DNA of 20,000 nucleotides from an uncultured virus (IMG/VR IMGVR_UViG_3300032334_001252) (taxonomy: Duplodnaviria; Heunggongvirae; Uroviricota; Caudoviricetes), in the IMG/VR virus record IMGVR_UViG_3300032334_001252, one strand, 5' to 3'. The translations under genes and the position numbers were made by a program. The notes below the pieces were generated by a model. It was not told the origin of the DNA and did not search any database. It saw only the letters and a list, made by a program, of their open reading frames with translations. Shown piece by piece: positions 1,398 to 15,884 of this stretch. Positions within the stretch are counted from its first letter, which is position 1. Each line of letters starts with the position of its first letter.

Positions 1398-1988
1398 TTA
1401 TTTATAGTTTAATGCTAATGAAATTCTAGGAACAGTATTTGTACCTTGCTCTACTAAATGTCGTAAATATGATCTAAAAATCAACAATAATCCTTGACGT
1501 GCAGGAAATTTAATTCTAGTAATATTTAGTTTATTTTTATATTTAATATCTTTTAGCGGAAACATATCAGGTTCCTTAGGATCTTCAAACATAATATTAC
1601 CTGAATTTTCTGGCGCACTAATATAGTACACTGCACTAAATACATTTGCATTGTGTGCATGAAATTCTTGGTAACTACCACTATCCGCTACATTAAACCA
1701 ACCTGTATGTGGAGTATAGTTGCCTTCACAACCACTAATACGTGCAAATTCGTTAACGTGTTGAGTAATTAAATTGACAAGTGGTTGAAACATTTTGTCT
1801 TGGTACAAGTCATGTGTGCCAAGAGTATTATAAGTATTGCCTAACCAACCTTCCCCACCTATAGCAGTATTTTGTTTTATTTGTAAACAATGTTTTGCTA
1901 ATTCATAATTTTGTTCTAAACTAACTAAATCTTCTTTAACATAAAAAGCTACTGGAAACCATTCCTCAATTGCTGTTGGTTCAATCAT
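1398..1988 (-). CDS. putative 2OG-Fe(II) oxygenase (TIGR02466-like)
   Basis: WFN...YQEFHAH...SAVYY...FEDP...GLLLIFRSYLRH...RISLALN. Confidence 0.8.
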   Translation of the reverse strand: MIEPTAIEEWFPVAFYVKEDLVSLEQNYELAKHCLQIKQNTAIGGEGWLGNTYNTLGTHDLYQDKMFQPLVNLITQHVNEFARISGCEGNYTPHTGWFNVADSGSYQEFHAHNANVFSAVYYISAPENSGNIMFEDPKEPDMFPLKDIKYKNKLNITRIKFPARQGLLLIFRSYLRHLVEQGTNTVPRISLALNYK

Positions 1989-4371: not shown

Positions 4372-4388
4372 TTAAATTATTGTATAAT
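4360..4388 (+). promoter_or_regulatory. sigma70-type promoter
   Basis: TTGAAC-17 nt-TATAAT; ATG only 6 nt downstream, so probably a leaderless mRNA. Confidence 0.7.
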
Positions 4389-4394
4389 ATAAAT

Positions 4395-4949
4395 ATGAAA
4401 CCAAATTACTTTTACATTAATAACATCTTAACAAAAGAAGATTGTGAACTAATAGTTGCAAAACAATTAGAACAAAACTTTGAAAAAGGTACTACTAGTA
4501 CAAAACAACAATCAATTTTTGAAAGAAATAGTTTTGTTAATTGGGTATTACCACAAACAATTTTAGACCCGTTAATGTATAGAATAATGGACGCGGTTAG
4601 ATTTCACACAATGAATGAGTTTGAATTTCCTGTTGGACAAGGAGAAATAATTCAATTTGGGGAATATGGATTTTTACAACATTATAGAGAACACATAGAC
4701 TGTAACATAACTAAACCTTATAGATTTATAAGTGCTACAGTACAACTTACTGACCCTAAACAGTATTTAGGGGGTAATTTACAAATAAAAAGAGGACCAT
4801 ATGATTGGGAAACTACACCTAAACAACAAGGTATTTTAACAGTATTTCCAAGTATGTTACCTCACAGGGTTACCCCAGTTTTATGGGGTAAAAGGCACTC
4901 ACTAGCACTATGGTTTGATATTGCTAGAGAGTATGAAGATGTTCAATAG
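4395..4949 (+). CDS. 2OG-Fe(II) oxygenase (prolyl-4-hydroxylase/PKHD-like)
   Basis: HID...YLGGNL...FPS..PHRVTPV..G.R.SL..W facial triad. Confidence 0.85.
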   Translation: MKPNYFYINNILTKEDCELIVAKQLEQNFEKGTTSTKQQSIFERNSFVNWVLPQTILDPLMYRIMDAVRFHTMNEFEFPVGQGEIIQFGEYGFLQHYREHIDCNITKPYRFISATVQLTDPKQYLGGNLQIKRGPYDWETTPKQQGILTVFPSMLPHRVTPVLWGKRHSLALWFDIAREYEDVQ

Positions 4950-6915: not shown

Positions 6916-7533
6916 ATGCAAACAATAGTAAATGACTATTTATATAGTTTTCAATTAGATAATATTGATAATAATGCACTATTCAACAAGTGTTTAGTTA
7001 TTGAAGATATTATTATTCAAACCACACCGGCTGCTGAAAAAGGTTGGTATGGTAATCTTACTAGTGCTAAAAATCAAAGTTATAATTTATTTACTTTTCC
7101 AGTAAAAGAGTTACACGAACTTTATCAAGCAATGGTAAAAAATATTACACCACTACTAGATAAAGATACCAGCTATGTATTAAAAAGCTGGATGAATGTA
7201 TATCGTAATGGTGATAAAGTAAGTTGGCATCAACATTGGCCTCCTAAAGATAAAGTATGGCATGGTTTTTATTGTGTAAATGTTGGCAAAAATGAAAGTG
7301 CTACCAATTATAAAATACCAGGAATTAAAGAAATTATTAATGTTCCTAGTATTGATGGATTATTGGTAGTAGGCAAAAGCGATGACGATAAACACAGCAG
7401 TACAGAGTGGCAAGGTAATAAACCACGTATTACATTAGCATTTGATATTGTTCCTATGTGGGCAGTAAATCCTAATGAAAATACAGATATGCATCATTTA
7501 CAACTATACCACTATATACCATTTAAAGCATGA
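6916..7533 (+). CDS. divergent putative 2OG-Fe(II) oxygenase (TIGR02466-like fold)
   Basis: SWMNVY...WHQH...HGFYCV...GLLVV...HSS...RITLAFD. Confidence 0.6.
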   Translation: MQTIVNDYLYSFQLDNIDNNALFNKCLVIEDIIIQTTPAAEKGWYGNLTSAKNQSYNLFTFPVKELHELYQAMVKNITPLLDKDTSYVLKSWMNVYRNGDKVSWHQHWPPKDKVWHGFYCVNVGKNESATNYKIPGIKEIINVPSIDGLLVVGKSDDDKHSSTEWQGNKPRITLAFDIVPMWAVNPNENTDMHHLQLYHYIPFKA

Positions 7534-11513: not shown

Positions 11514-11838
11514 GTTTAAAGAATTGTACTATCAATATACTATTGAAGTATATCAAACTATTTGCGTATTTTTATTTGTTGTAATAGTAATGCTATATGG
11601 TGTTATAGAGTTTAAAACTGGAGTTATGGAAGGTTATAAATCTACACTAGCACTTTTAAAAACACGCAGTGATGAACAAATTAGAGAAATCGCTGTGTTA
11701 CAAGAGCAGTACAAATATCAGACTCAAGAGATTGTTTTGCTAAAAGCTAAAGTAGCGCACGCAGACAATACAATGCGTAAAGACATTGAAGATTTAAAAC
11801 AACAACAAAATCCAGTAGTTAAACATCTTAGAAAATAA
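11503..11838 (+). CDS. membrane-anchored coiled-coil protein
   Basis: Hydrophobic ICVFLFVVIVMLYGVI then heptad-rich region. Confidence 0.65.
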   Translation: MSSKFKELYYQYTIEVYQTICVFLFVVIVMLYGVIEFKTGVMEGYKSTLALLKTRSDEQIREIAVLQEQYKYQTQEIVLLKAKVAHADNTMRKDIEDLKQQQNPVVKHLRK

Positions 11839-11912
11839 ATCTCCTTGGTGTAATGGCAGCACTGCAGTCTCCAAAACTGTAAGTGGGAGTTCGAGTCTCT
11901 CAGGGGATGCCA
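11839..11912 (+). tRNA. tRNA-Trp(CCA)
   Basis: ATCTCCT/AGGGGAT, CT-CCA-AA, GCCA. Confidence 0.92.
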
Positions 11913-11922
11913 AAATTTTCAT

Positions 11923-11951
11923 TTGATTTCATAATTGAATTTCTGTATAAT
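11923..11951 (+). promoter_or_regulatory. sigma70-type promoter
   Basis: TTGATT-17 nt-TATAAT. Confidence 0.75.
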
Positions 11952-11960
11952 TGATATATT

Positions 11961-12047
11961 GGGTAACGAGAAGCATTGGTGACTTCAGCAGACTGTAAAT
12001 CTGTCGCCTCTAGAGGCAACGGGGTTCGATTCCCTGGTTACCCACCA
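11961..12047 (+). tRNA. tRNA-Tyr(GUA)
   Basis: GGGTAAC/GTTACCC, CT-GTA-AA, long variable arm, G at position 8. Confidence 0.92.
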
Positions 12048-12053
12048 AATAAC

Positions 12054-12138
12054 GCGAGTATGGTGGAATAGGTAGACACAAGAGACTTAAAATCTCTCGC
12101 CGCAAGGTGTATCGGTTCGACTCCGATTACTCGTACCA
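12054..12138 (+). tRNA. tRNA-Leu(UAA)
   Basis: GCGAGTA/TACTCGT, CT-TAA-AA, long variable arm. Confidence 0.95.
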
Positions 12139-12154
12139 AATTTGAAAGTTGACA

Positions 12155-12766
12155 ATGAAAGTAGATGGATTGTGGGCAACACCAATATATCACAGTAGAT
12201 TAGATAACCAAAGTATACTTTTAGTACAAGAAGAATTTAAAAAAGTATATGATAGTTATATATTAAATGCTACATTTAATAAAAGATCAGATTGGGAAAA
12301 CAGAAGCCATAGTTTAAGCGATATTAGTTTTAATAGTAACTTTATTGAAGAATTTAATTTAATTCATTTTAAAAAAGTTATTGAAATTGCTTTAAAACAA
12401 TATATGTTTAGTATTAATCAACCAACTGATTACAAGTATAAATTATATGAATCTTGGATGACATTAACAAAACATAATGAATTTGCTATTCCACACAATC
12501 ATCCGCCTGCGGATATTTCAGGCGTATATTACTATCAAACAAATGGTAATGATGGAGATATTACTTTTATAGCACCTCCTTTGGGAGGTAGCTGGGTACC
12601 AAAATCAGGAAGCTTACTAGCTAATATTAGTTATAAACCTGAAGTAGGCAGATTATTATTGTTCCCAGGTTGGTTAACACATTATGTAAAAGCAAATGAA
12701 ACATATAATAATAGAGTTAGTGTTTCATTTAATATTAAGTTTCACAGAGAAAAATCGGTCTTATAG
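12155..12766 (+). CDS. putative 2OG-Fe(II) oxygenase (TIGR02466-like)
   Basis: SWMT...HNH...ISGVYY...PEVGRLLLFPGWLTHYV...RVSVSFN; stop inside tRNA-Asp. Confidence 0.8.
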   Translation: MKVDGLWATPIYHSRLDNQSILLVQEEFKKVYDSYILNATFNKRSDWENRSHSLSDISFNSNFIEEFNLIHFKKVIEIALKQYMFSINQPTDYKYKLYESWMTLTKHNEFAIPHNHPPADISGVYYYQTNGNDGDITFIAPPLGGSWVPKSGSLLANISYKPEVGRLLLFPGWLTHYVKANETYNNRVSVSFNIKFHREKSVL

Positions 12767-12832
12767 TGTTAGCGGTAAGCACGCGAGCCTGTCACGCTTG
12801 TAGGAGGGATTCGAATTCCCTTAAGACCGCCA
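12757..12832 (+). tRNA. tRNA-Asp(GUC)
   Basis: GGTCTTA/TAAGACC, CT-GTC-AC, GCCA. Confidence 0.93.
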
Positions 12833-12837
12833 AATAT

Positions 12838-12913
12838 TCCTCAGTAGCACAGCGGTAGTTGCACTTGACTGTTAATCAAGTTGTCCGTGGTTCGATCCCA
12901 CGCTGAGGAGCCA
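12838..12913 (+). tRNA. tRNA-Asn(GUU)
   Basis: TCCTCAG/CTGAGGA, CT-GTT-AA, GCCA. Confidence 0.95.
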
Positions 12914-12988
12914 GGTAATGTAGGACAATGGTAGTCTACCTCCTTCATACGGAGATTGTTAGTGGTTCAAATCCACTCATTACCACCA
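12914..12988 (+). tRNA. tRNA-Met(CAU), probably elongator
   Basis: GGTAATG/CATTACC, TT-CAT-AC, ACCA. Confidence 0.85.
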
Positions 12989-12991
12989 AGT

Positions 12992-13217
12992 TTTGTTAAA
13001 GTGTTAGCAAGAGAATGTCACGCTAGTAAGGTTTCTTCGAAGGACTGAGCTAGTAAAAGGTTGCGGGTTCGATTCCCGACTGATCGCCGTTTACGGTGGC
13101 GGTATACAGGTGGCGTATCAACTGGACTAGTATCCCAAGTAATGTACCCCCACCCGTCCGGACTATATACTCGGTGTGAATGGTTTCGATAAATCAGGGC
13201 GAAACTACTTTAACAAA
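12992..13217 (+). ncRNA. ~230-nt structured RNA with permuted tRNA-like domain (unknown family)
   Basis: 11-bp closing stem TTTGTTAAAGT/ACTTTAACAAA, GC-rich, no ORF, several helices, T-loop TTCGATT. Confidence 0.7.
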
Positions 13218-13226
13218 TTCAATTGT

Positions 13227-13300
13227 TGGGGTATAGTGTAATGGTAGCACTACGGATTTTGATTCCGTCAGTTGGGGTTCGAGTCCCTATACCCCTGCCA
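13227..13300 (+). tRNA. tRNA-Gln(UUG)
   Basis: TGGGGTA/TACCCCT, TT-TTG-AT, GCCA. Confidence 0.93.
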
Positions 13301-13301
13301 C

Positions 13302-13378
13302 ACGATCTTAGCACAACGGATTAGTGCACTTCGCTACGAACGAAGAGGTTAGGAGTTCAAATCTCTTAGATCGTACCA
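13302..13378 (+). tRNA. tRNA-Arg(ACG)
   Basis: ACGATCT/AGATCGT, CT-ACG-AA, ACCA. Confidence 0.93.
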
Positions 13379-13380
13379 TT

Positions 13381-13455
13381 AGCCTTATAGCTCAGAGGCA
13401 GAGCAATCGCTTGATAAGCGATAGGTCGACATCTCGGAATTGTCTAAGGCTACCA
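13381..13455 (+). tRNA. tRNA-Ile(GAU), atypical T-arm
   Basis: AGCCTTA/TAAGGCT, TT-GAT-AA; T-arm GACA-TCTCGGAAT-TGTC. Confidence 0.85.
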
Positions 13456-13467
13456 ATTTTTATTTAA

Positions 13468-13543
13468 GTCCCGTTCATCTAGCGGCCAAGGATAGTGCCC
13501 TTTCACGGCATTCACACCAGTTCGAATCTGGTACGGGACTCCA
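13468..13543 (+). tRNA. tRNA-Glu(UUC)
   Basis: GTCCCGT/ACGGGAC, CT-TTC-AC, CCA. Confidence 0.93.
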
Positions 13544-13552
13544 CTTATTACT

Positions 13553-14023
13553 ATGAAAACTTTTAATATTGAAGAAGTAAAAAATTATATTCGTGCTCAA
13601 AGTCCTGAAACTAAAATTTATTTAGGTGCAGATAGCGAGCGAATTAATATTAAAGGTATCTGGTATGCAGACTATACACTAGCCATTGTTGTTCATATTA
13701 ATGGCAACAGTGGCTGTAAAATTTTTGGAGACGTACACAGAGAGCGTGATTACGATCAAAAGTCTAATAAACCTAGTATGCGACTAATGCAAGAAGTTTA
13801 TAAAGTAGGCGATCTATTTCATGAATTAGCAGATGTATTAGAAGATAGATATGTAGAAGTACACTTAGACATTAACCCTGACGAAAAACACAAATCAAGT
13901 GCAGTAGTGCAACAAGCTGTAGGATATATCAAAGGTACTTGCAATATTGATGCGCTAGTAAAACCACGAGCATTTGCAGCAAGCTATGCTGCAGACCGAT
14001 TAAAATTTGTACTTGCAAACTAG
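13553..14023 (+). CDS. RNase H-like YkuK (DUF458) family protein
   Basis: KIYLGADS, RLMQEV, EVHLDINP, KP.AFAASYAAD. Confidence 0.8.
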   Translation: MKTFNIEEVKNYIRAQSPETKIYLGADSERINIKGIWYADYTLAIVVHINGNSGCKIFGDVHRERDYDQKSNKPSMRLMQEVYKVGDLFHELADVLEDRYVEVHLDINPDEKHKSSAVVQQAVGYIKGTCNIDALVKPRAFAASYAADRLKFVLAN

Positions 14024-14024
14024 T

Positions 14025-14171
14025 ATGAAAACAATTACAATACAACTTGACATTAATTTAGTTAAACAATTAAAATTTATAGCTAAACAGCGAAAACTTA
14101 CACTAAGCGAATTAGTAAACGAAATACTTAAACTTAAACTACAGGAGTTAGAAGATGACCGACCGTTTTGA
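14025..14171 (+). CDS. ribbon-helix-helix (CopG/Arc-like) small protein
   Basis: Hand-translated MKTITIQLDINLVKQLKFIAKQRKLTLSELVNEILK... Confidence 0.6.
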   Translation: MKTITIQLDINLVKQLKFIAKQRKLTLSELVNEILKLKLQELEDDRPF

Positions 14172-14379
14172 TTTAGAACAACAAATTATGCAGTGCTGGA
14201 CGATTACTGAAGACATTAAGTTATTGAATACTTATGTACTGGAAGGTAAGATCGAAGGTGGAGAAATGACTCAGGATGAGATTTCAAACTACCTCTTGGG
14301 ATTAGAGTCGATCTATAACCTAAAATTTGAACAAATGTTTCACACATTCAGTACACTAGTTCACGACAAGAAAATTTAA
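14155..14379 (+). CDS. hypothetical phage protein (DRFDLEQQIM family)
   Basis: AGGAG RBS, 74 aa. Confidence 0.75.
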   Translation: MTDRFDLEQQIMQCWTITEDIKLLNTYVLEGKIEGGEMTQDEISNYLLGLESIYNLKFEQMFHTFSTLVHDKKI

Positions 14380-14380
14380 T

Positions 14381-14456
14381 GTACGCGTGACCCGAATGGT
14401 TAGGGCTCGGATTGCAAATCCGCACTATGCAGGTTCAAGTCCTGTCGCGTACTCCA
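14381..14456 (+). tRNA. tRNA-Cys(GCA)
   Basis: GTACGCG/CGCGTAC, TT-GCA-AA, U73, CCA. Confidence 0.93.
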
Positions 14457-14863: not shown

Positions 14864-14947
14864 TTTAAACACTTTGGTCAGCACTGTGGGAAGCGCAGAT
14901 GGACAACACTAGAACAAGGTTCGAATCCAAACTAGGGTGTTTAAATA
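14862..14947 (+). ncRNA. stem-closed RNA cassette 3 with T-loop sequence (unknown)
   Basis: 17-bp TATTTAAACACTTTGGT/ACTAGGGTGTTTAAATA; inner CTGTG/CGCAG hairpin and GGTTCGAATCC. Confidence 0.5.
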
Positions 14948-14948
14948 T

Positions 14949-15275
14949 GGTTGTATGAAATAGACAGAAAAGCGTTGTGGACGCGGGTGCAAATCCCGCC
15001 AGCTCCACCATAAAGTATATTGAAGCGATCGATAGCTGTGGGACGCGTTCCGACTTTAAGTGCGATATACTTTTTGATGGGGCTGTTATAGATTCGACAT
15101 GGCGACAAGTACAAAAGTGGACAACTCGGAAAAGTGGAATCCGTTAGGACTGGGGAATCCTGGTCGCAGAACACACCAAAAGTAAACGCAAACGACTCAC
15201 AGTTCGCATTGGCAGCCTAAACGCTGACTAGGGTTTTGTCAAGTTTTCCTCGTAACAGAATAAACTTGACCCTAA
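14949..15275 (+). ncRNA. ssrA: circularly permuted (two-piece) tmRNA; tag (A)NDSQFALAA
   Basis: T-arm and CAGCTCC-ACCA (ends 15010) precede GGGGCTG..ATTCGAC (starts 15079); G3:U70; tag ORF 15188-15220. Outer ends approximate. Confidence 0.92.
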
Positions 15276-15293
15276 ATTTAACAAGGTAACACA

Positions 15294-15884
15294 ATGACAG
15301 AAGATATTAAAATTACAACACCTGCAGAGTATTTTACTAAAAATACTGGCAATCAATATGAGTTTTACCTTAGCGGTCAAATTGAGTCTGCTGATAATTA
15401 TATTCAATGGTTTGATGTAATCAGAAATGCTAGGGAACAGGACACAGTAAAAATCTATATTAATAGCCCTGGTGGTGACTTGTATACTGCACTACAATTT
15501 TTGCGTGTAATGGGTGAGTGTGAAGCGCACTTGGTCACCAGTGTTGAAGGTTGTTGCATGAGTGCAGCTACCATGATATTTTTAAGTGGTCATGAGTATC
15601 AAGTAACTCCACACAGTTTATTTATGTTTCACAATTACAGTGGTGGCGTATTTGGTAAAGGCGGTGAACAATACGATCAAATTCAGTACGAACGTGCTTG
15701 GTCTGAAAAGTTTATGAACGAAGTCTACAAAGACTTCTTAACCACTGACGAAATCAAGTCTATGTTAGATAACAAAGATATTTGGATGACGTCGGAACAA
15801 GTATTAGAACGTATCGAAAAGGTAATGAAAAAGTTACATGAAGAACAACAAGCTATGGAAGCTGCTAGCCAAATCGCTGGGTGA
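15294..15884 (+). CDS. clpP: ClpP-like serine protease (peptidase S14)
   Basis: IYINSPGGD, CMSAATMIFLSG (Ser), FMFHN (His), KDIWMT (Asp). Confidence 0.88.
   Translation: MTEDIKITTPAEYFTKNTGNQYEFYLSGQIESADNYIQWFDVIRNAREQDTVKIYINSPGGDLYTALQFLRVMGECEAHLVTSVEGCCMSAATMIFLSGHEYQVTPHSLFMFHNYSGGVFGKGGEQYDQIQYERAWSEKFMNEVYKDFLTTDEIKSMLDNKDIWMTSEQVLERIEKVMKKLHEEQQAMEAASQIAG

What the first reader, a model, noticed from the sequence alone, without database searches (positions are those of the whole stretch)
12992..13217. Unknown ~230-nt RNA carrying a circularly permuted tRNA mimic
Seen: inside an 11-bp closing stem, 13059-13123 reads GGTTG / T-arm CGGG-TTCGATT-CCCG / acceptor-like helix CTG[A]TCGCCG-TTTA-CGGTGGCGG closed by a loop / UA (like U8-A9) / D-arm TAC-AGGTGGC-GTA / CAACT pairing back to GGTTG. 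So the order is T-acceptor-D, with the anticodon stem leading into the rest of the molecule, which has further helices (GCTAGT/GCTAGT arm, CACCCG/CGGTGTG, GGTTTCG/CGAAACT). Known: this topology defines the tRNA-like domain of bacterial YrlA Y RNAs, but those are much shorter and linked to Ro60, not seen here. Inference: a non-chargeable tRNA decoy fused to a larger, possibly catalytic or scaffold domain. Best candidate for an undescribed system.
Basis: partly seen in the sequence, partly recalled or inferred. Interest (0 to 1): 0.85.

Follow-up and report, generated by a model that had tools for sequence, protein, structure and literature searches.

The report
New tRNA-mimic RNA family in phages
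The flagged stretch is a real gene for a roughly 225-base structured RNA that carries a back-to-front, sealed tRNA look-alike inside a conserved scaffold; it belongs to a large family found in freshwater phage tRNA clusters that matched nothing in the RNA family catalogue searched, and its loops suggest it sticks to copies of itself.

Summary
Observation confirmed; interpretation supported and extended. Window 12990-13220 (+) lies between tRNA-Met and tRNA-Gln. It matches no Rfam 15 family, YrlA included. It is absent from two 78-88% identical syntenic relatives. Pattern scans found at least 98 distinct full-length homologues in uncultivated viral contigs of up to 524 kb, mostly inside tRNA islands.

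On 72 sequences, a 48-pair, 10-helix structure pairs in 97.3% of cells against 28-49% for slid controls. 28 pairs show compensatory changes.

The fold has these parts:
- a sequence-conserved terminal stem and a long-range helix;
- a hairpin with an invariant UUCGAA loop;
- a circularly permuted tRNA-like module (T arm, optional sealed acceptor arm, D-like arm with GG);
- two 3' hairpins.

One loop carries a covarying 6-nt palindrome in 92 of 98 members, which cannot pair within one chain. I therefore predict homo-oligomerisation, as argued for OLE and GOLLD loops.

RNA-library contigs from three studies cover the family. No TROVE or RtcB gene occurs in 5 near-complete carrier phages. A possibly Ro60-like DUF2828 gene is only loosely linked. 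Function is unknown. Sequence look-ups in earlier scan notes found nothing on this family.

The parts
12990..13220 (+). Whole RNA gene (about 226 nt from P1 to P1, plus a few conserved flanking bases). It is an accessory cassette in the tRNA array.
   Evidence: Window blocks 12827-12995 and 13220-13300 abut in relatives L065 and L066, where tRNA-Met is followed by tRNA-Gln after 5 nt. One RNA-library contig joins 12986 to 13220. Full-length homologues.
12992..13002 (+). P1, 5' strand of the 11-bp terminal stem. It pairs with 13207-13217.
   Evidence: Helix 1: 11 pairs, 8 with changes on both sides, 98.4% of cells paired. The sequence itself is at least 90% conserved at most positions.
13207..13217 (+). 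P1, 3' strand.
   Evidence: helix 1
13003..13006 (+). P2, 5' strand (GUUA). This long-range helix pairs with 13140-13143 (UAAU) and encloses Ha, the tRNA-like module and the mini-hairpin.
   Evidence: Alignment column 23 with column 176: U-A 36, C-G 34 of 72. In 98 sequences: U-A 41, C-G 48, U-G 8.
13140..13143 (+). P2, 3' strand.
13007..13021 (+). Conserved single-stranded junction (AGCAAGAGAAUGUCA C).
   Evidence: Nearly invariant columns. Part of this block was fixed by the pattern, so its conservation is partly by construction.
13022..13054 (+). Hairpin Ha. Outer stem 13022-13026 with 13050-13054, inner stem 13030-13035 with 13042-13046 (one U bulged), apical hexaloop UUCGAA at 13036-13041.
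   Evidence: Helices 3 and 4. In members collected without fixing this block, the loop is always UUCGAA and its closing pair covaries: C-G in 84, G-C in 14 of 98.
13059..13123 (+). Circularly permuted tRNA-like module. Anticodon-like stem 13059-13063 with 13119-13123, T arm 13064-13078, sealed acceptor-like hairpin 13080-13102, UA 13103-13104, D-like arm 13105-13117.
   Evidence: T-stem pair C-G 33 / U-A 29 and anticodon-like pair U-A 41 / C-G 13. Of 89 members parsed out of 98: T stem of 4 bp in 82, D-like hairpin with GG in 84, acceptor hairpin of 4 bp or more in 59. 18 T-arm variants, 17 anticodon-like stem variants and 26 D-stem variants.
13124..13135 (+). Mini-hairpin GGA...UCC.
   Evidence: Helix 7: 93.1% paired, no compensatory change. 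This is the weakest helix.
13151..13178 (+). Hairpin Hb, whose loop starts with the palindrome UCCGGA at 13157-13162 (GUCCGGAC at 13156-13163).
   Evidence: Helix 8. Palindrome helix 9: outer pair G-C 28 / C-G 24 / U-A 14, second pair C-G 40 / U-A 24, inner pair C-G 65, with the two inner columns adjacent. A perfect 6-nt palindrome is present in 92 of 98 members, with 9 different hexamers.
13182..13206 (+). Hairpin Hc (GGUUUCG / CGAAACU) with an 11-nt loop.
   Evidence: Helix 10: 5 of 6 pairs change on both sides. Strongest mutual information.
12914..12988 (+). Flanking tRNA-Met (CAU), ending 1 base before the cassette (12990) and 3 bases before P1 (12992).
13227..13300 (+). Flanking tRNA-Gln (UUG), starting 9 nt after the 3' end of P1.

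Best explanation
The stretch is a gene for a stable structured non-coding RNA on the + strand. It belongs to a family, seemingly undescribed, of RNAs of about 205-240 nt that sit as single-copy cassettes in the tRNA islands of large uncultivated freshwater phages.

Shown: the conserved fold.
- A sequence-conserved terminal stem (P1) stacks on a long-range helix (P2).
- P2 encloses a hairpin with an invariant UUCGAA loop and a YrlA-type circularly permuted tRNA body: T arm, loop-sealed and dispensable acceptor arm, and D-like arm whose GG can meet the T loop to form a tRNA 'elbow'.
- Two further hairpins follow. One carries a covarying palindrome in its loop.

Inferred:
1. It is transcribed with the neighbouring tRNAs and released by the enzymes that trim them.
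2. It cannot be charged or decode.
3. The palindromic loop, and perhaps the palindromic UUCGAA loop, pairs with the same loop of another copy. The RNA would then act as a homodimer or a higher symmetric assembly.
4. That assembly displays tRNA elbows, and so binds, sequesters or recruits a factor that recognises the tRNA elbow. It would be a tRNA-mimic platform and not a translator.
For: No known family fits. The Rfam gathering scan and the E<=10 scan give only a 15-16 nt T-arm match in the element. Seven members give nothing at E<=1.

The family is large. Three of 4, 7 of 14, 96 and 91 pattern matches in viral contigs gave 101 distinct sequences, 98 after trimming. Two further members lie on short MAG contigs.

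The structure is supported. 97.3% of cells are paired against 28-49% for slid controls. 28 of 48 pairs are compensatory, and 0 of 500 shuffles reach the observed values.

The fold belongs to the + strand. Near-invariant G-U pairs (70, 72 and 69 of 72 sequences at three pairs) would be C-A mismatches on the other strand.

The context is tRNA arrays.
- A same-strand tRNA lies within 30 nt upstream in 58 of 94 members and within 40 nt downstream in 64 of 97.
- The RNA lies among 21-30 tRNA genes per 10 kb in 5 huge phages.
- It is single copy in 5 of 5.
- No terminator-like site lies in 11800-14400, and promoter-like sites are not above chance.

The palindrome points to self-pairing. 92 of 98 members have a perfect hexamer palindrome at the start of the Hb loop: GCCGGC 27, UCCGGA 26, CUCGAG 22, CCCGGG 9, GUCGAC 3 and four rarer ones. 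The central C and G are adjacent, so pairing within one chain is sterically excluded. Kretsch et al. 2025 used the same argument for OLE L9.3 and GOLLD L21a (PMC12286853, passages read).

The acceptor arm is not needed for function. A hairpin of 4 bp or more was found in only 59 of 89 parsed members.

The family appears in RNA libraries. In three metatranscriptome runs of three studies, contigs at least 85% alike cover 13010-13071. Their summed word depth is 1267-1370, 649-829 and 11759-12324, against at most 127 over the neighbouring tRNA-Asn bins.
Against: - Folding energy is unremarkable (z = -0.68).
- The cassette is missing from the two closest relatives, so it is dispensable.
- Self-association is inferred from sequence only. 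No tool here models RNA complexes.
- The UUCGAA loop with its closing pair is equally explained as an ordinary hairpin or a T-loop-like motif.
- No partner protein was found.
- The family was collected with sequence patterns that fix some blocks, so the conservation of those blocks is partly by construction.
- The sequences are related, so counts are not independent events.
- RNA-library contigs can hold DNA, give no ends, and their depth is a poor measure (the tool's own warning). tRNAs are also under-represented in such libraries.
- The mini-hairpin has no compensatory change.
- My D-arm parser mis-assigns some stems.
Confidence: 0.55

Rival explanations
1. It is a Y RNA in the functional sense: a monomeric tether. 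The conserved terminal stem would dock a Ro60-type ring protein, either the host's Rsr or a phage DUF2828/DUF7788 protein. The tRNA-like module would recruit a second factor such as PNPase, as in the Ro60-Y RNA-PNPase machine.
For: - The T, sealed-acceptor, D order on a stem is the defining topology of YrlA (PMC4201824, sections 5 and 6 read).
- P1 is conserved in sequence, not only in pairing, as expected of a protein-binding stem.
- In huge-phage contig G011, a 471-aa DUF2828+DUF7788 ORF lies 2.9 kb downstream on the same strand in the tRNA island. PHROG 850 names it 'RNA-binding protein'.
- With its own families excluded, 27 of the 30 nearest named clusters in the protein atlas are TROVE plus vWA_Ro60 clusters, scores 0.91-0.93 (a lead only).
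- In 8 of 80 DUF2828 loci the RNA lies 1.1-9.2 kb upstream on the same strand.
- Related phages have sub-threshold YrlA matches of 32-42 bits in their tRNA arrays.
Against: - RF02553 finds nothing in the window at E<=10 or in 7 members at E<=1.
- GNCGAAN0-1G is in 0 of 98 members.
- TROVE is in 0 of 5 near-complete carriers and 0 of 5 relatives of the window phage. RtcB is in 0 of 5.
- DUF2828 is in only 3 of 10 carrier contigs.
- Only 7 of the 35 DUF2828 loci with at least 6 kb of upstream sequence hold the RNA. For YrlA, nearly all best matches lay within 4 kb of Ro60.
- The Ro60 likeness of DUF2828 rests on language-model features alone. PDB sequence search found nothing, and the single-sequence AF2 model was too poor to compare (pLDDT 43.5).
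Confidence: 0.2
2. It is a selfish or cis-acting cassette. Either it is a small mobile insert whose ends are inverted repeats, or it is a spacer that only helps to process or insulate the tRNA array, with no function of its own as a free RNA.
For: - Presence/absence polymorphism with clean junctions between close relatives.
- The flanking tRNAs differ from phage to phage.
- Similarity is mosaic: the 5' part is most like L230 (0.93), the 3' part most like L208 (0.88), and 0.74 overall to the nearest member.
- The 11-bp terminal inverted repeat.
Against: - Ten internal helices covary, not just the ends. P1 tolerates G-U pairs (12 of 72 at one pair), which are selected at the RNA level only.
- Long single-stranded stretches and loop sequences are conserved.
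- It is single copy per genome. The end motif is not repeated elsewhere in the window at zero mismatches beyond the two arms.
- RNA-library contigs with very high word depth lie on it.
Confidence: 0.1
3. It is a ribozyme or a ligand-binding RNA whose conserved junction strands form an active site or pocket.
For: Unusually strong conservation of unpaired junction nucleotides around two multi-helix junctions.
Against: No match to any ribozyme or riboswitch family in Rfam. It is not in a 5' UTR. No cleavage-site signature was seen, and nothing here tests catalysis.
Confidence: 0.07
4. Chance, or the remains of decayed tRNA genes.
For: The energy z-score is not significant. The length is about three tRNA units. 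Tandem tRNAs can mimic the T-then-D order (noted by Chen et al.).
Against: Full-length conservation with compensatory changes in at least 98 distinct sequences. The acceptor strands are complementary to each other. No tRNA model fits.
Confidence: 0.01

Closest known systems
YrlA (Y RNA-like A; Rfam RF02553; Chen et al. 2014, PMC4201824)
   Same: A tRNA-like domain in circularly permuted order (T arm, loop-closed acceptor-like stem, D arm) carried on a stem that replaces the anticodon arm. It is non-decoding and also occurs in phages with tRNA arrays.
   Different: No covariance-model match. No GNCGAAN0-1G motif (0 of 98). No TROVE gene in carriers. About twice as long, with some 150 nt of extra conserved scaffold (P2, Ha, Hb, Hc). 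No V loop or arm in the window copy. The acceptor arm is dispensable. The loops are palindromic.
GOLLD and ROOL RNAs (Kretsch et al. 2025, PMC12286853, passages read)
   Same: Phage-encoded and often in tRNA islands, with unknown function. Self-complementary loops whose palindromes covary, which in GOLLD and OLE mark intermolecular bridges of RNA-only homo-oligomers. GOLLD sometimes holds tRNAs in its linker.
   Different: Those RNAs are about 600-800+ nt against about 212 nt here. There is no Rfam match to either. Their assemblies are solved structures, whereas oligomerisation here is only predicted. Here the tRNA-like body is an integral, non-canonical part of the fold.
tRNA-like domain of two-piece (permuted) tmRNA (Rfam RF04321)
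   Same: The same gene order: helix strand, T arm, acceptor 3' strand, loop, acceptor 5' strand, D analogue, helix strand. A genuine one lies in this window at 14918-15311.
   Different: No encoded CCA. The acceptor hairpin has a 3-5 nt loop or is absent. There is no tag reading frame and no alanine identity pair. Only the T arm scores (11.1 bits).
Stable 'species 1 and 2' RNAs of the phage T4 tRNA cluster (recalled from memory; not checked in any call)
   Same: Small stable RNAs of unknown function encoded among phage tRNA genes and cut out by tRNA-processing enzymes.
   Different: No sequence relation was tested. A search of 50,697 phage records with the window stretch found only tRNA matches among the 30 best rows listed.

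Membership tests
YrlA / bacterial Y RNA | Permuted tRNA-like domain: T stem-loop, acceptor-like stem-loop, D stem-loop on a closing stem | tested here: met
YrlA / bacterial Y RNA | Match to covariance model RF02553 (gathering score 69 bits) | tested here: not met
   No match at E<=10 in window 12950-13260. No match at E<=1 in 7 members.
YrlA / bacterial Y RNA | GNCGAAN0-1G (Ro60-contact motif) near the 5' end | tested here: not met
   0 of 98 members. The nearest thing is UUCGAAG in the Ha loop.
YrlA / bacterial Y RNA | Encoded within about 4 kb of a TROVE/Ro60 gene on the same strand | tested here: not met
   No TROVE in the 28 window ORFs scanned. TROVE in 0 of 5 near-complete carriers. A possibly Ro60-like DUF2828 gene is within 4 kb in a few contigs only.
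YrlA / bacterial Y RNA | Length 80-130 nt | tested here: not met
   About 226 nt here. Family median is 212 nt as trimmed.
YrlA / bacterial Y RNA | Bound by Ro60/Rsr; tRNA-type modifications (pseudouridine 55, dihydrouridine) | not testable with these tools
   Needs immunoprecipitation and modification mapping.
tRNA | Cloverleaf in canonical order with anticodon loop and free acceptor ends | tested here: not met
   ARAGORN and RF00005 call nothing in 12989-13226.
permuted tmRNA | Acceptor stem ending in CCA, tag reading frame, match to RF04321 | tested here: not met
   Only the 15-nt T arm matches, at 11.1 bits. No CCA follows the acceptor 3' strand.
ROOL / GOLLD | Match to the Rfam models | tested here: not met
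   No match.
ROOL / GOLLD | Phage tRNA-island location | tested here: met
ROOL / GOLLD | RNA-only homo-oligomer held by symmetric loop-loop bridges | tested here: inconclusive
   The covarying palindrome in the Hb loop predicts it.

The most novel reading that the evidence does not exclude
This would be a new class of self-assembling phage RNA. Protomers of about 212 nt carry two self-complementary loops: the covarying Hb palindrome and the invariant UUCGAA loop. They would build RNA-only symmetric assemblies (a dimer, ring or small cage) that present sealed tRNA elbows. In 30 of the 89 parsed members the acceptor arm is capped by a GNRA tetraloop (GGAA 26, GAAA 3, GCAA 1). It would be a compact, highly expressed counterpart of ROOL and GOLLD in freshwater phage tRNA islands. 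It might trap or organise tRNA-binding factors, or tRNAs themselves, during infection.
Probability: 0.35. Interest if true: 0.9.

Novelty: new variant of a known kind. Interest (0 to 1): 0.8.

Why it matters
- tRNA islands of large phages are already known to hold the enigmatic ROOL and GOLLD RNAs and Y-RNA-type tRNA mimics. This family joins features of both in one small molecule: a YrlA-type permuted tRNA body and covarying self-complementary loops.
- At about 212 nt it is easy to transcribe and to study by cryo-EM, SEC-MALS and mutagenesis.
- It has at least 98 natural variants with a swappable tRNA-like module. That makes a natural experiment on which parts matter.
- It seems abundant in lake metatranscriptomes.
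- It therefore makes an open question testable: what do non-coding RNAs of phage tRNA islands do, and is self-assembly a common theme?
- For annotation, it fills unexplained gaps of about 230 nt in phage tRNA arrays that Rfam 15 and tRNA finders leave blank.

Tried and rejected
- **Whole-genome look-ups.** None is held for this window.
- **Exact 31-mer scan of viral contigs.** 0 matches; the pattern was too strict.
- **blastn and megablast against 50,697 phage records.** Only tRNA-sized matches.
- **Neighbour-gene routes.** 50 viral loci around relatives of the downstream RNase H-like gene held no copy by blastn; the only match was a 17-nt T arm. The upstream 2OG oxygenase gave no loci.
- **DNA search of 5 relatives' contigs.** Only T-arm-sized matches.
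- **Anticodon reading of Ha.** I first read the Ha loop as a 7-nt anticodon-like loop (CUUCGAA, 'UCG'). I dropped this when members collected without fixing that block showed a UUCGAA hexaloop with a covarying C-G or G-C closing pair.
- **RNAalifold's local GUG/CAC hairpin.** Replaced by the long-range P2 helix, which alone covaries.
- **RNase P RNA, group I intron and 11-nt receptor likenesses.** These were seen by eye from recalled consensus sequences. No tool supports them and I make no claim.
- **First palindrome scripts.** They under-counted because of poor anchors. One search supersedes them.
- **DUF2828 protein.** PDB sequence search found nothing. The homologue search returned only relatives 86-96% identical, useless for a deeper profile. 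The single-sequence AF2 model had mean pLDDT 43.5, so no fold search was run.
- **YrlA matches in DUF2828 contigs (29-39.5 bits).** They may be tandem-tRNA false positives, since the control rings in 6 of 14 genomes. I do not use them as evidence.
- **RNA-run bins without cover** (13165-13226 in most runs). No conclusion is drawn.
- **Library adapters joined at 13007, 13011 and 13018 in three runs.** They may mark RT stops or fragment ends. This is not interpretable from contigs.
- **Literature.** Five searches found no description of this family. This covers only the held open-access library and proves nothing about subscription journals.
Full report
**1. The observation**

The window is a phage-like region. 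ARAGORN tRNA genes and Rfam 24, largely the same genes: Rfam alone finds 13381-13452, ARAGORN alone finds tRNA-Tyr at 11961-12047. There is also a permuted tmRNA. Between them lie ORFs such as ThyX, Hsp20, UvdE and several 2OG-Fe(II) oxygenases.

The flagged stretch fills a 238-nt gap between tRNA-Met (12914-12988) and tRNA-Gln (13227-13300). No tRNA, Rfam family or ORF of 50 aa or more is called there.

Thermodynamics alone does not set the stretch apart. The MFE is -64.4 kcal/mol against -61.3 +/- 4.5 for shuffles, and 51 of 200 shuffles fold at least as well. A permissive Rfam scan (E<=10) of 12950-13260 returned five matches:
- the truncated flanking tRNAs;
- one chance match (Plastid-rps12, E 7.2);
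- the T arm alone, as tRNA-Sec (13 bits) and as permuted tmRNA (11.1 bits).

YrlA did not appear.

**2. An accessory cassette**

No whole genome is held for the window. The phage collection holds no relative beyond tRNA-sized matches.

I looked for relatives through the RNase H-like gene downstream (13553-14023, PF04308). This gave 50 viral loci without the element and 56 metagenome loci.

The two closest, L065 and L066 (94% protein identity), are syntenic with the window at 78-88% nucleotide identity. They even carry the same tmRNA tag. In them tRNA-Met is followed by tRNA-Gln after 5 nt. Window blocks 12827-12995 and 13220-13300 abut. One RNA-library contig also joins 12986 to 13220.

So the roughly 230 nt form a cassette that is present or absent, in the same way as whole tRNA genes differ between these arrays. 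The relatives have an extra tRNA-Ser and lack the window's tRNA-Arg(ACG).

**3. A large family**

- A two-anchor pattern (T loop plus D loop) found 4 stretches in viral contigs. Three are full-length homologues.
- The D-arm 17-mer found 14 stretches, of which 7 are true and 7 are coding false positives.
- The Ha block plus T loop found 96 stretches.
- A pattern on the 5' junction, which leaves Ha free, found 91 stretches.
- Pooling gave 101 distinct sequences, 98 after trimming.
- The same pattern in 185,579 species genomes found 5 stretches. Two are true members, both on 3-5 kb MAG contigs. Three are coding false positives.

Carrier contigs reach 524 kb. In five near-complete (94-100%) contigs of 340-525 kb, the RNA is single copy and 75-81% identical between them. 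It lies on the tRNA strand in the middle of islands of 21-30 tRNA genes per 10 kb.

Across the family, a same-strand tRNA lies within 30 nt upstream in 58 of 94 members with enough flank, and within 40 nt downstream in 64 of 97. The neighbours' identities vary.

The window copy is at most 74% identical to any other member and is mosaic. Its 5' part is closest to L230 (0.93) and its 3' part to L208 (0.88).

Seven members scanned against Rfam at E<=1 matched only their flanking tRNAs. Five literature searches and two sequence look-ups in this scan's earlier notes found no description of the family.

**4. The structure**

RNAalifold on 72 sequences predicted 33 pairs, 18 with compensatory changes. 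Mutual information added a long-range pair, column 23 with column 176 (U-A 36, C-G 34). This defines helix P2 and displaces an invariant local GUG/CAC pairing.

The refined model has 48 pairs in 10 helices. 97.3% of 3314 cells are paired, against 28.0-48.6% when partners are slid by 1-3 columns. 28 pairs change on both sides, and 0 of 500 column shuffles reach the observed values.

In window coordinates:

| Element | Position |
|---|---|
| P1 | 12992-13002 with 13207-13217 |
| P2 | 13003-13006 with 13140-13143 |
| Conserved junction | 13007-13021 |
| Ha | 13022-13054, loop UUCGAA at 13036-13041 |
| tRNA-like module | 13059-13123 |
| Mini-hairpin | 13124-13135 |
| Hb | 13151-13178 |
| Hc | 13182-13206 |

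Near-invariant G-U pairs show that only the + strand folds this way. P1 is conserved in sequence as well as in pairing.

Three caveats apply. The sequences were gathered with patterns that fix some blocks. They are related to each other. The MAFFT alignment is poor in the variable centre.

**5. The tRNA-like module**

I parsed the module in 89 of the 98 members.

- The T arm has a 4-bp stem in 82, with loop UUCGANN. There are 18 stem and loop variants, for example CGGG/CCCG, UGGG/CCCA and AGGG/CCCU.
- A D-like hairpin with GG in its loop was found in 84.
- The anticodon-like stem has 2-5 bp and covaries at its third pair (GGU/ACU 26, GGC/GCU 19).
- The acceptor-like hairpin has 4 bp or more in only 59. 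The rest were 3 bp or fewer, or were not parsed.
- Where present, it is always loop-closed. The loop is a GNRA tetraloop in 30 members (GGAA 26, GAAA 3, GCAA 1).

So the constant feature is the T-loop/D-loop elbow on a stem. An aminoacylatable end is not part of it.

This is the YrlA topology (PMC4201824, sections 5 and 6). However, the defining tests for YrlA membership fail:
- no CM match;
- GNCGAAN0-1G in 0 of 98;
- no TROVE gene in the window ORFs, in 5 relatives of the window phage or in 5 near-complete carriers;
- RtcB in 0 of 5;
- length about twice the 80-130 nt stated for Y RNAs.

Related phages that lack this family do carry shorter elements with sub-threshold YrlA scores (42 and 32 bits) in their tRNA arrays. 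The family may therefore be an enlarged offshoot of such mimics. That is inference.

**6. Palindromic loops**

The first six loop bases of Hb form a perfect palindrome in 92 of 98 members, at the same offset in 82. Nine different hexamers occur: GCCGGC 27, UCCGGA 26, CUCGAG 22, CCCGGG 9, GUCGAC 3, GCUAGC 2, and CAGCUG, GUGCAC and CCUAGG once each. A random hexamer is a palindrome 1 time in 64.

On the 72-sequence alignment the three pairs read G-C 28 / C-G 24 / U-A 14, then C-G 40 / U-A 24, then C-G 65. The two inner columns are adjacent. Adjacent bases cannot pair within one chain. Covariation that preserves a palindrome therefore points to pairing between two copies.

Kretsch et al. used this same argument, later borne out by their cryo-EM structures, for OLE L9.3 and GOLLD L21a (PMC12286853, passages read).

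The Ha loop UUCGAA is also self-complementary and invariant. Its closing pair switches between C-G (84) and G-C (14). That fits either a hairpin closing pair or an 8-bp intermolecular duplex, so Ha is ambiguous.

Two different self-complementary contacts per protomer allow a dimer or a dihedral ring or cage. This is a prediction, not a result.

**7. Expression**

Public runs holding parts of the stretch are lake or freshwater metagenomes by their labels; most hold only a small share of its words.

I laid four metatranscriptome runs from four studies on 12700-13600 at 85% likeness or more. Three of them hold contigs on the conserved 5' half. Summed word depth over 13010-13071 was 1267-1370 (X15), 649-829 (X16) and 11759-12324 (X19). 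Over the tRNA-Asn bins it was at most 52, 127 and 37. X19 also covers 13103-13164 at about 4500-4800. X17 holds nothing on the element.

The tool warns that such contigs may include DNA, give no ends, and that depth is a poor measure. tRNAs are also poorly captured in such libraries, and the depth sums many related phages. I take this as good evidence that family members are present in RNA preparations at high level. It is not proof of a discrete transcript.

No terminator-like site lies in 11800-14400, and promoter-like sites are not above chance (13 against 8.9 +/- 3.2). This fits co-transcription with the array.

**8. A loosely linked, possibly Ro60-like gene**

Among array-strand ORFs of about 150 aa or more within about 5 kb of the RNA in the five huge phages, most had no family or unrelated ones. 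One 471-aa ORF in G011, 2.9 kb downstream, is DUF2828 (PF11443) plus DUF7788 (PF25043).

- DUF7788 weakly overlaps VWA_2 (E 0.15).
- PHROG 850 names the protein 'RNA-binding protein'.
- With its own families excluded, 27 of the 30 nearest named clusters in the protein atlas are TROVE plus vWA_Ro60 clusters, scores 0.91-0.93 (by the tool's own figures a lead only).
- PDB sequence search found nothing.
- The single-sequence model was too poor to compare (pLDDT 43.5).

The gene is present in 3 of 10 carrier contigs. Of 80 DUF2828 loci with up to 10 kb of flank, 8 hold the RNA, always upstream on the same strand. That is 7 of the 35 loci with at least 6 kb upstream. The link is real but loose, far from the near-obligate adjacency of YrlA and Ro60.

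**9. Verdict**

This is a genuine RNA family that is apparently uncatalogued. It combines a YrlA-type permuted tRNA mimic with a conserved multi-junction scaffold and self-complementary loops.

I rank the readings as follows.

| Reading | Confidence |
|---|---|
| Stable, array-processed, self-associating tRNA-elbow platform | 0.55 |
| Y-RNA-like tether for a Ro60-type protein | 0.2 |
| Selfish or cis-acting cassette | 0.1 |
| Ribozyme or ligand-binding RNA | 0.07 |
| Chance or decayed tRNA genes | 0.01 |

The biological function remains unknown.

Noticed in passing
window 14918-15311 (+): A permuted (two-piece type) tmRNA gene with tag ANDSQFALAA* (RF04321, 111.7 bits; ARAGORN 'tmRNA*'). The same tag is in relative L066, and a permuted tmRNA also sits in the tRNA island of huge-phage contig G009 (L330 8304-8717).
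   Followed up: partly
window 13381-13452 (+): A tRNA found by Rfam (51.9 bits) but not by ARAGORN. By eye its anticodon is GAU (Ile), and its T loop departs from the usual UUCGA.
   Followed up: no
L051 1501-1565 (-) and L052 1501-1614 (-): Shorter elements with the YrlA-type permuted order, at 42 and 32 bits (below the 69-bit cut-off). They have a 7-bp closing stem (AGGAU.../...AUCCU) and lie in tRNA arrays of phages related to the window phage. No TROVE gene is on those contigs. They may be simpler relatives of the family described here.
   Followed up: partly
L332 940-2352 (-); also G013:C1 about 259.8-260.6 kb and G016:C1 about 136.4-137.2 kb: A 471-aa DUF2828+DUF7788 protein (PHROG 850, 'RNA-binding protein') at the end of phage tRNA islands. 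Its nearest named clusters by language-model features are TROVE/Ro60 clusters. It is very widespread: 410 stretches in viral contigs, and 7961 proteins at E<=1e-10, many 86-96% identical. It is a candidate phage Ro60 analogue worth its own study.
   Followed up: partly
window 13553-14023 (+) and 106 related loci: An RNase H-like gene (PF04308) is embedded in tRNA arrays across many freshwater and marine phage contigs. It usually sits directly beside a tRNA-Met gene.
   Followed up: no
window 1398-1988, 4380-4949, 6916-7533, 12149-12766: Four 2OG-Fe(II) oxygenase-type ORFs within 12 kb. One match is below Pfam's cut-off. One lies between tRNA genes.
   Followed up: no
window 13007, 13011, 13018: In three metatranscriptome runs, contigs carry sequencing-adapter letters joined directly at these places. 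Many library fragments therefore end inside the conserved 5' junction. This could be an RT stop, a modification or a processing site.
   Followed up: no
window 12757-13543 versus L066 1366-1935: tRNA array turnover between 78-88% identical phages. The relatives have tRNA-Ser(GCU) between Asp and Asn. The window has an extra tRNA-Arg(ACG) and the RNA cassette.
   Followed up: partly
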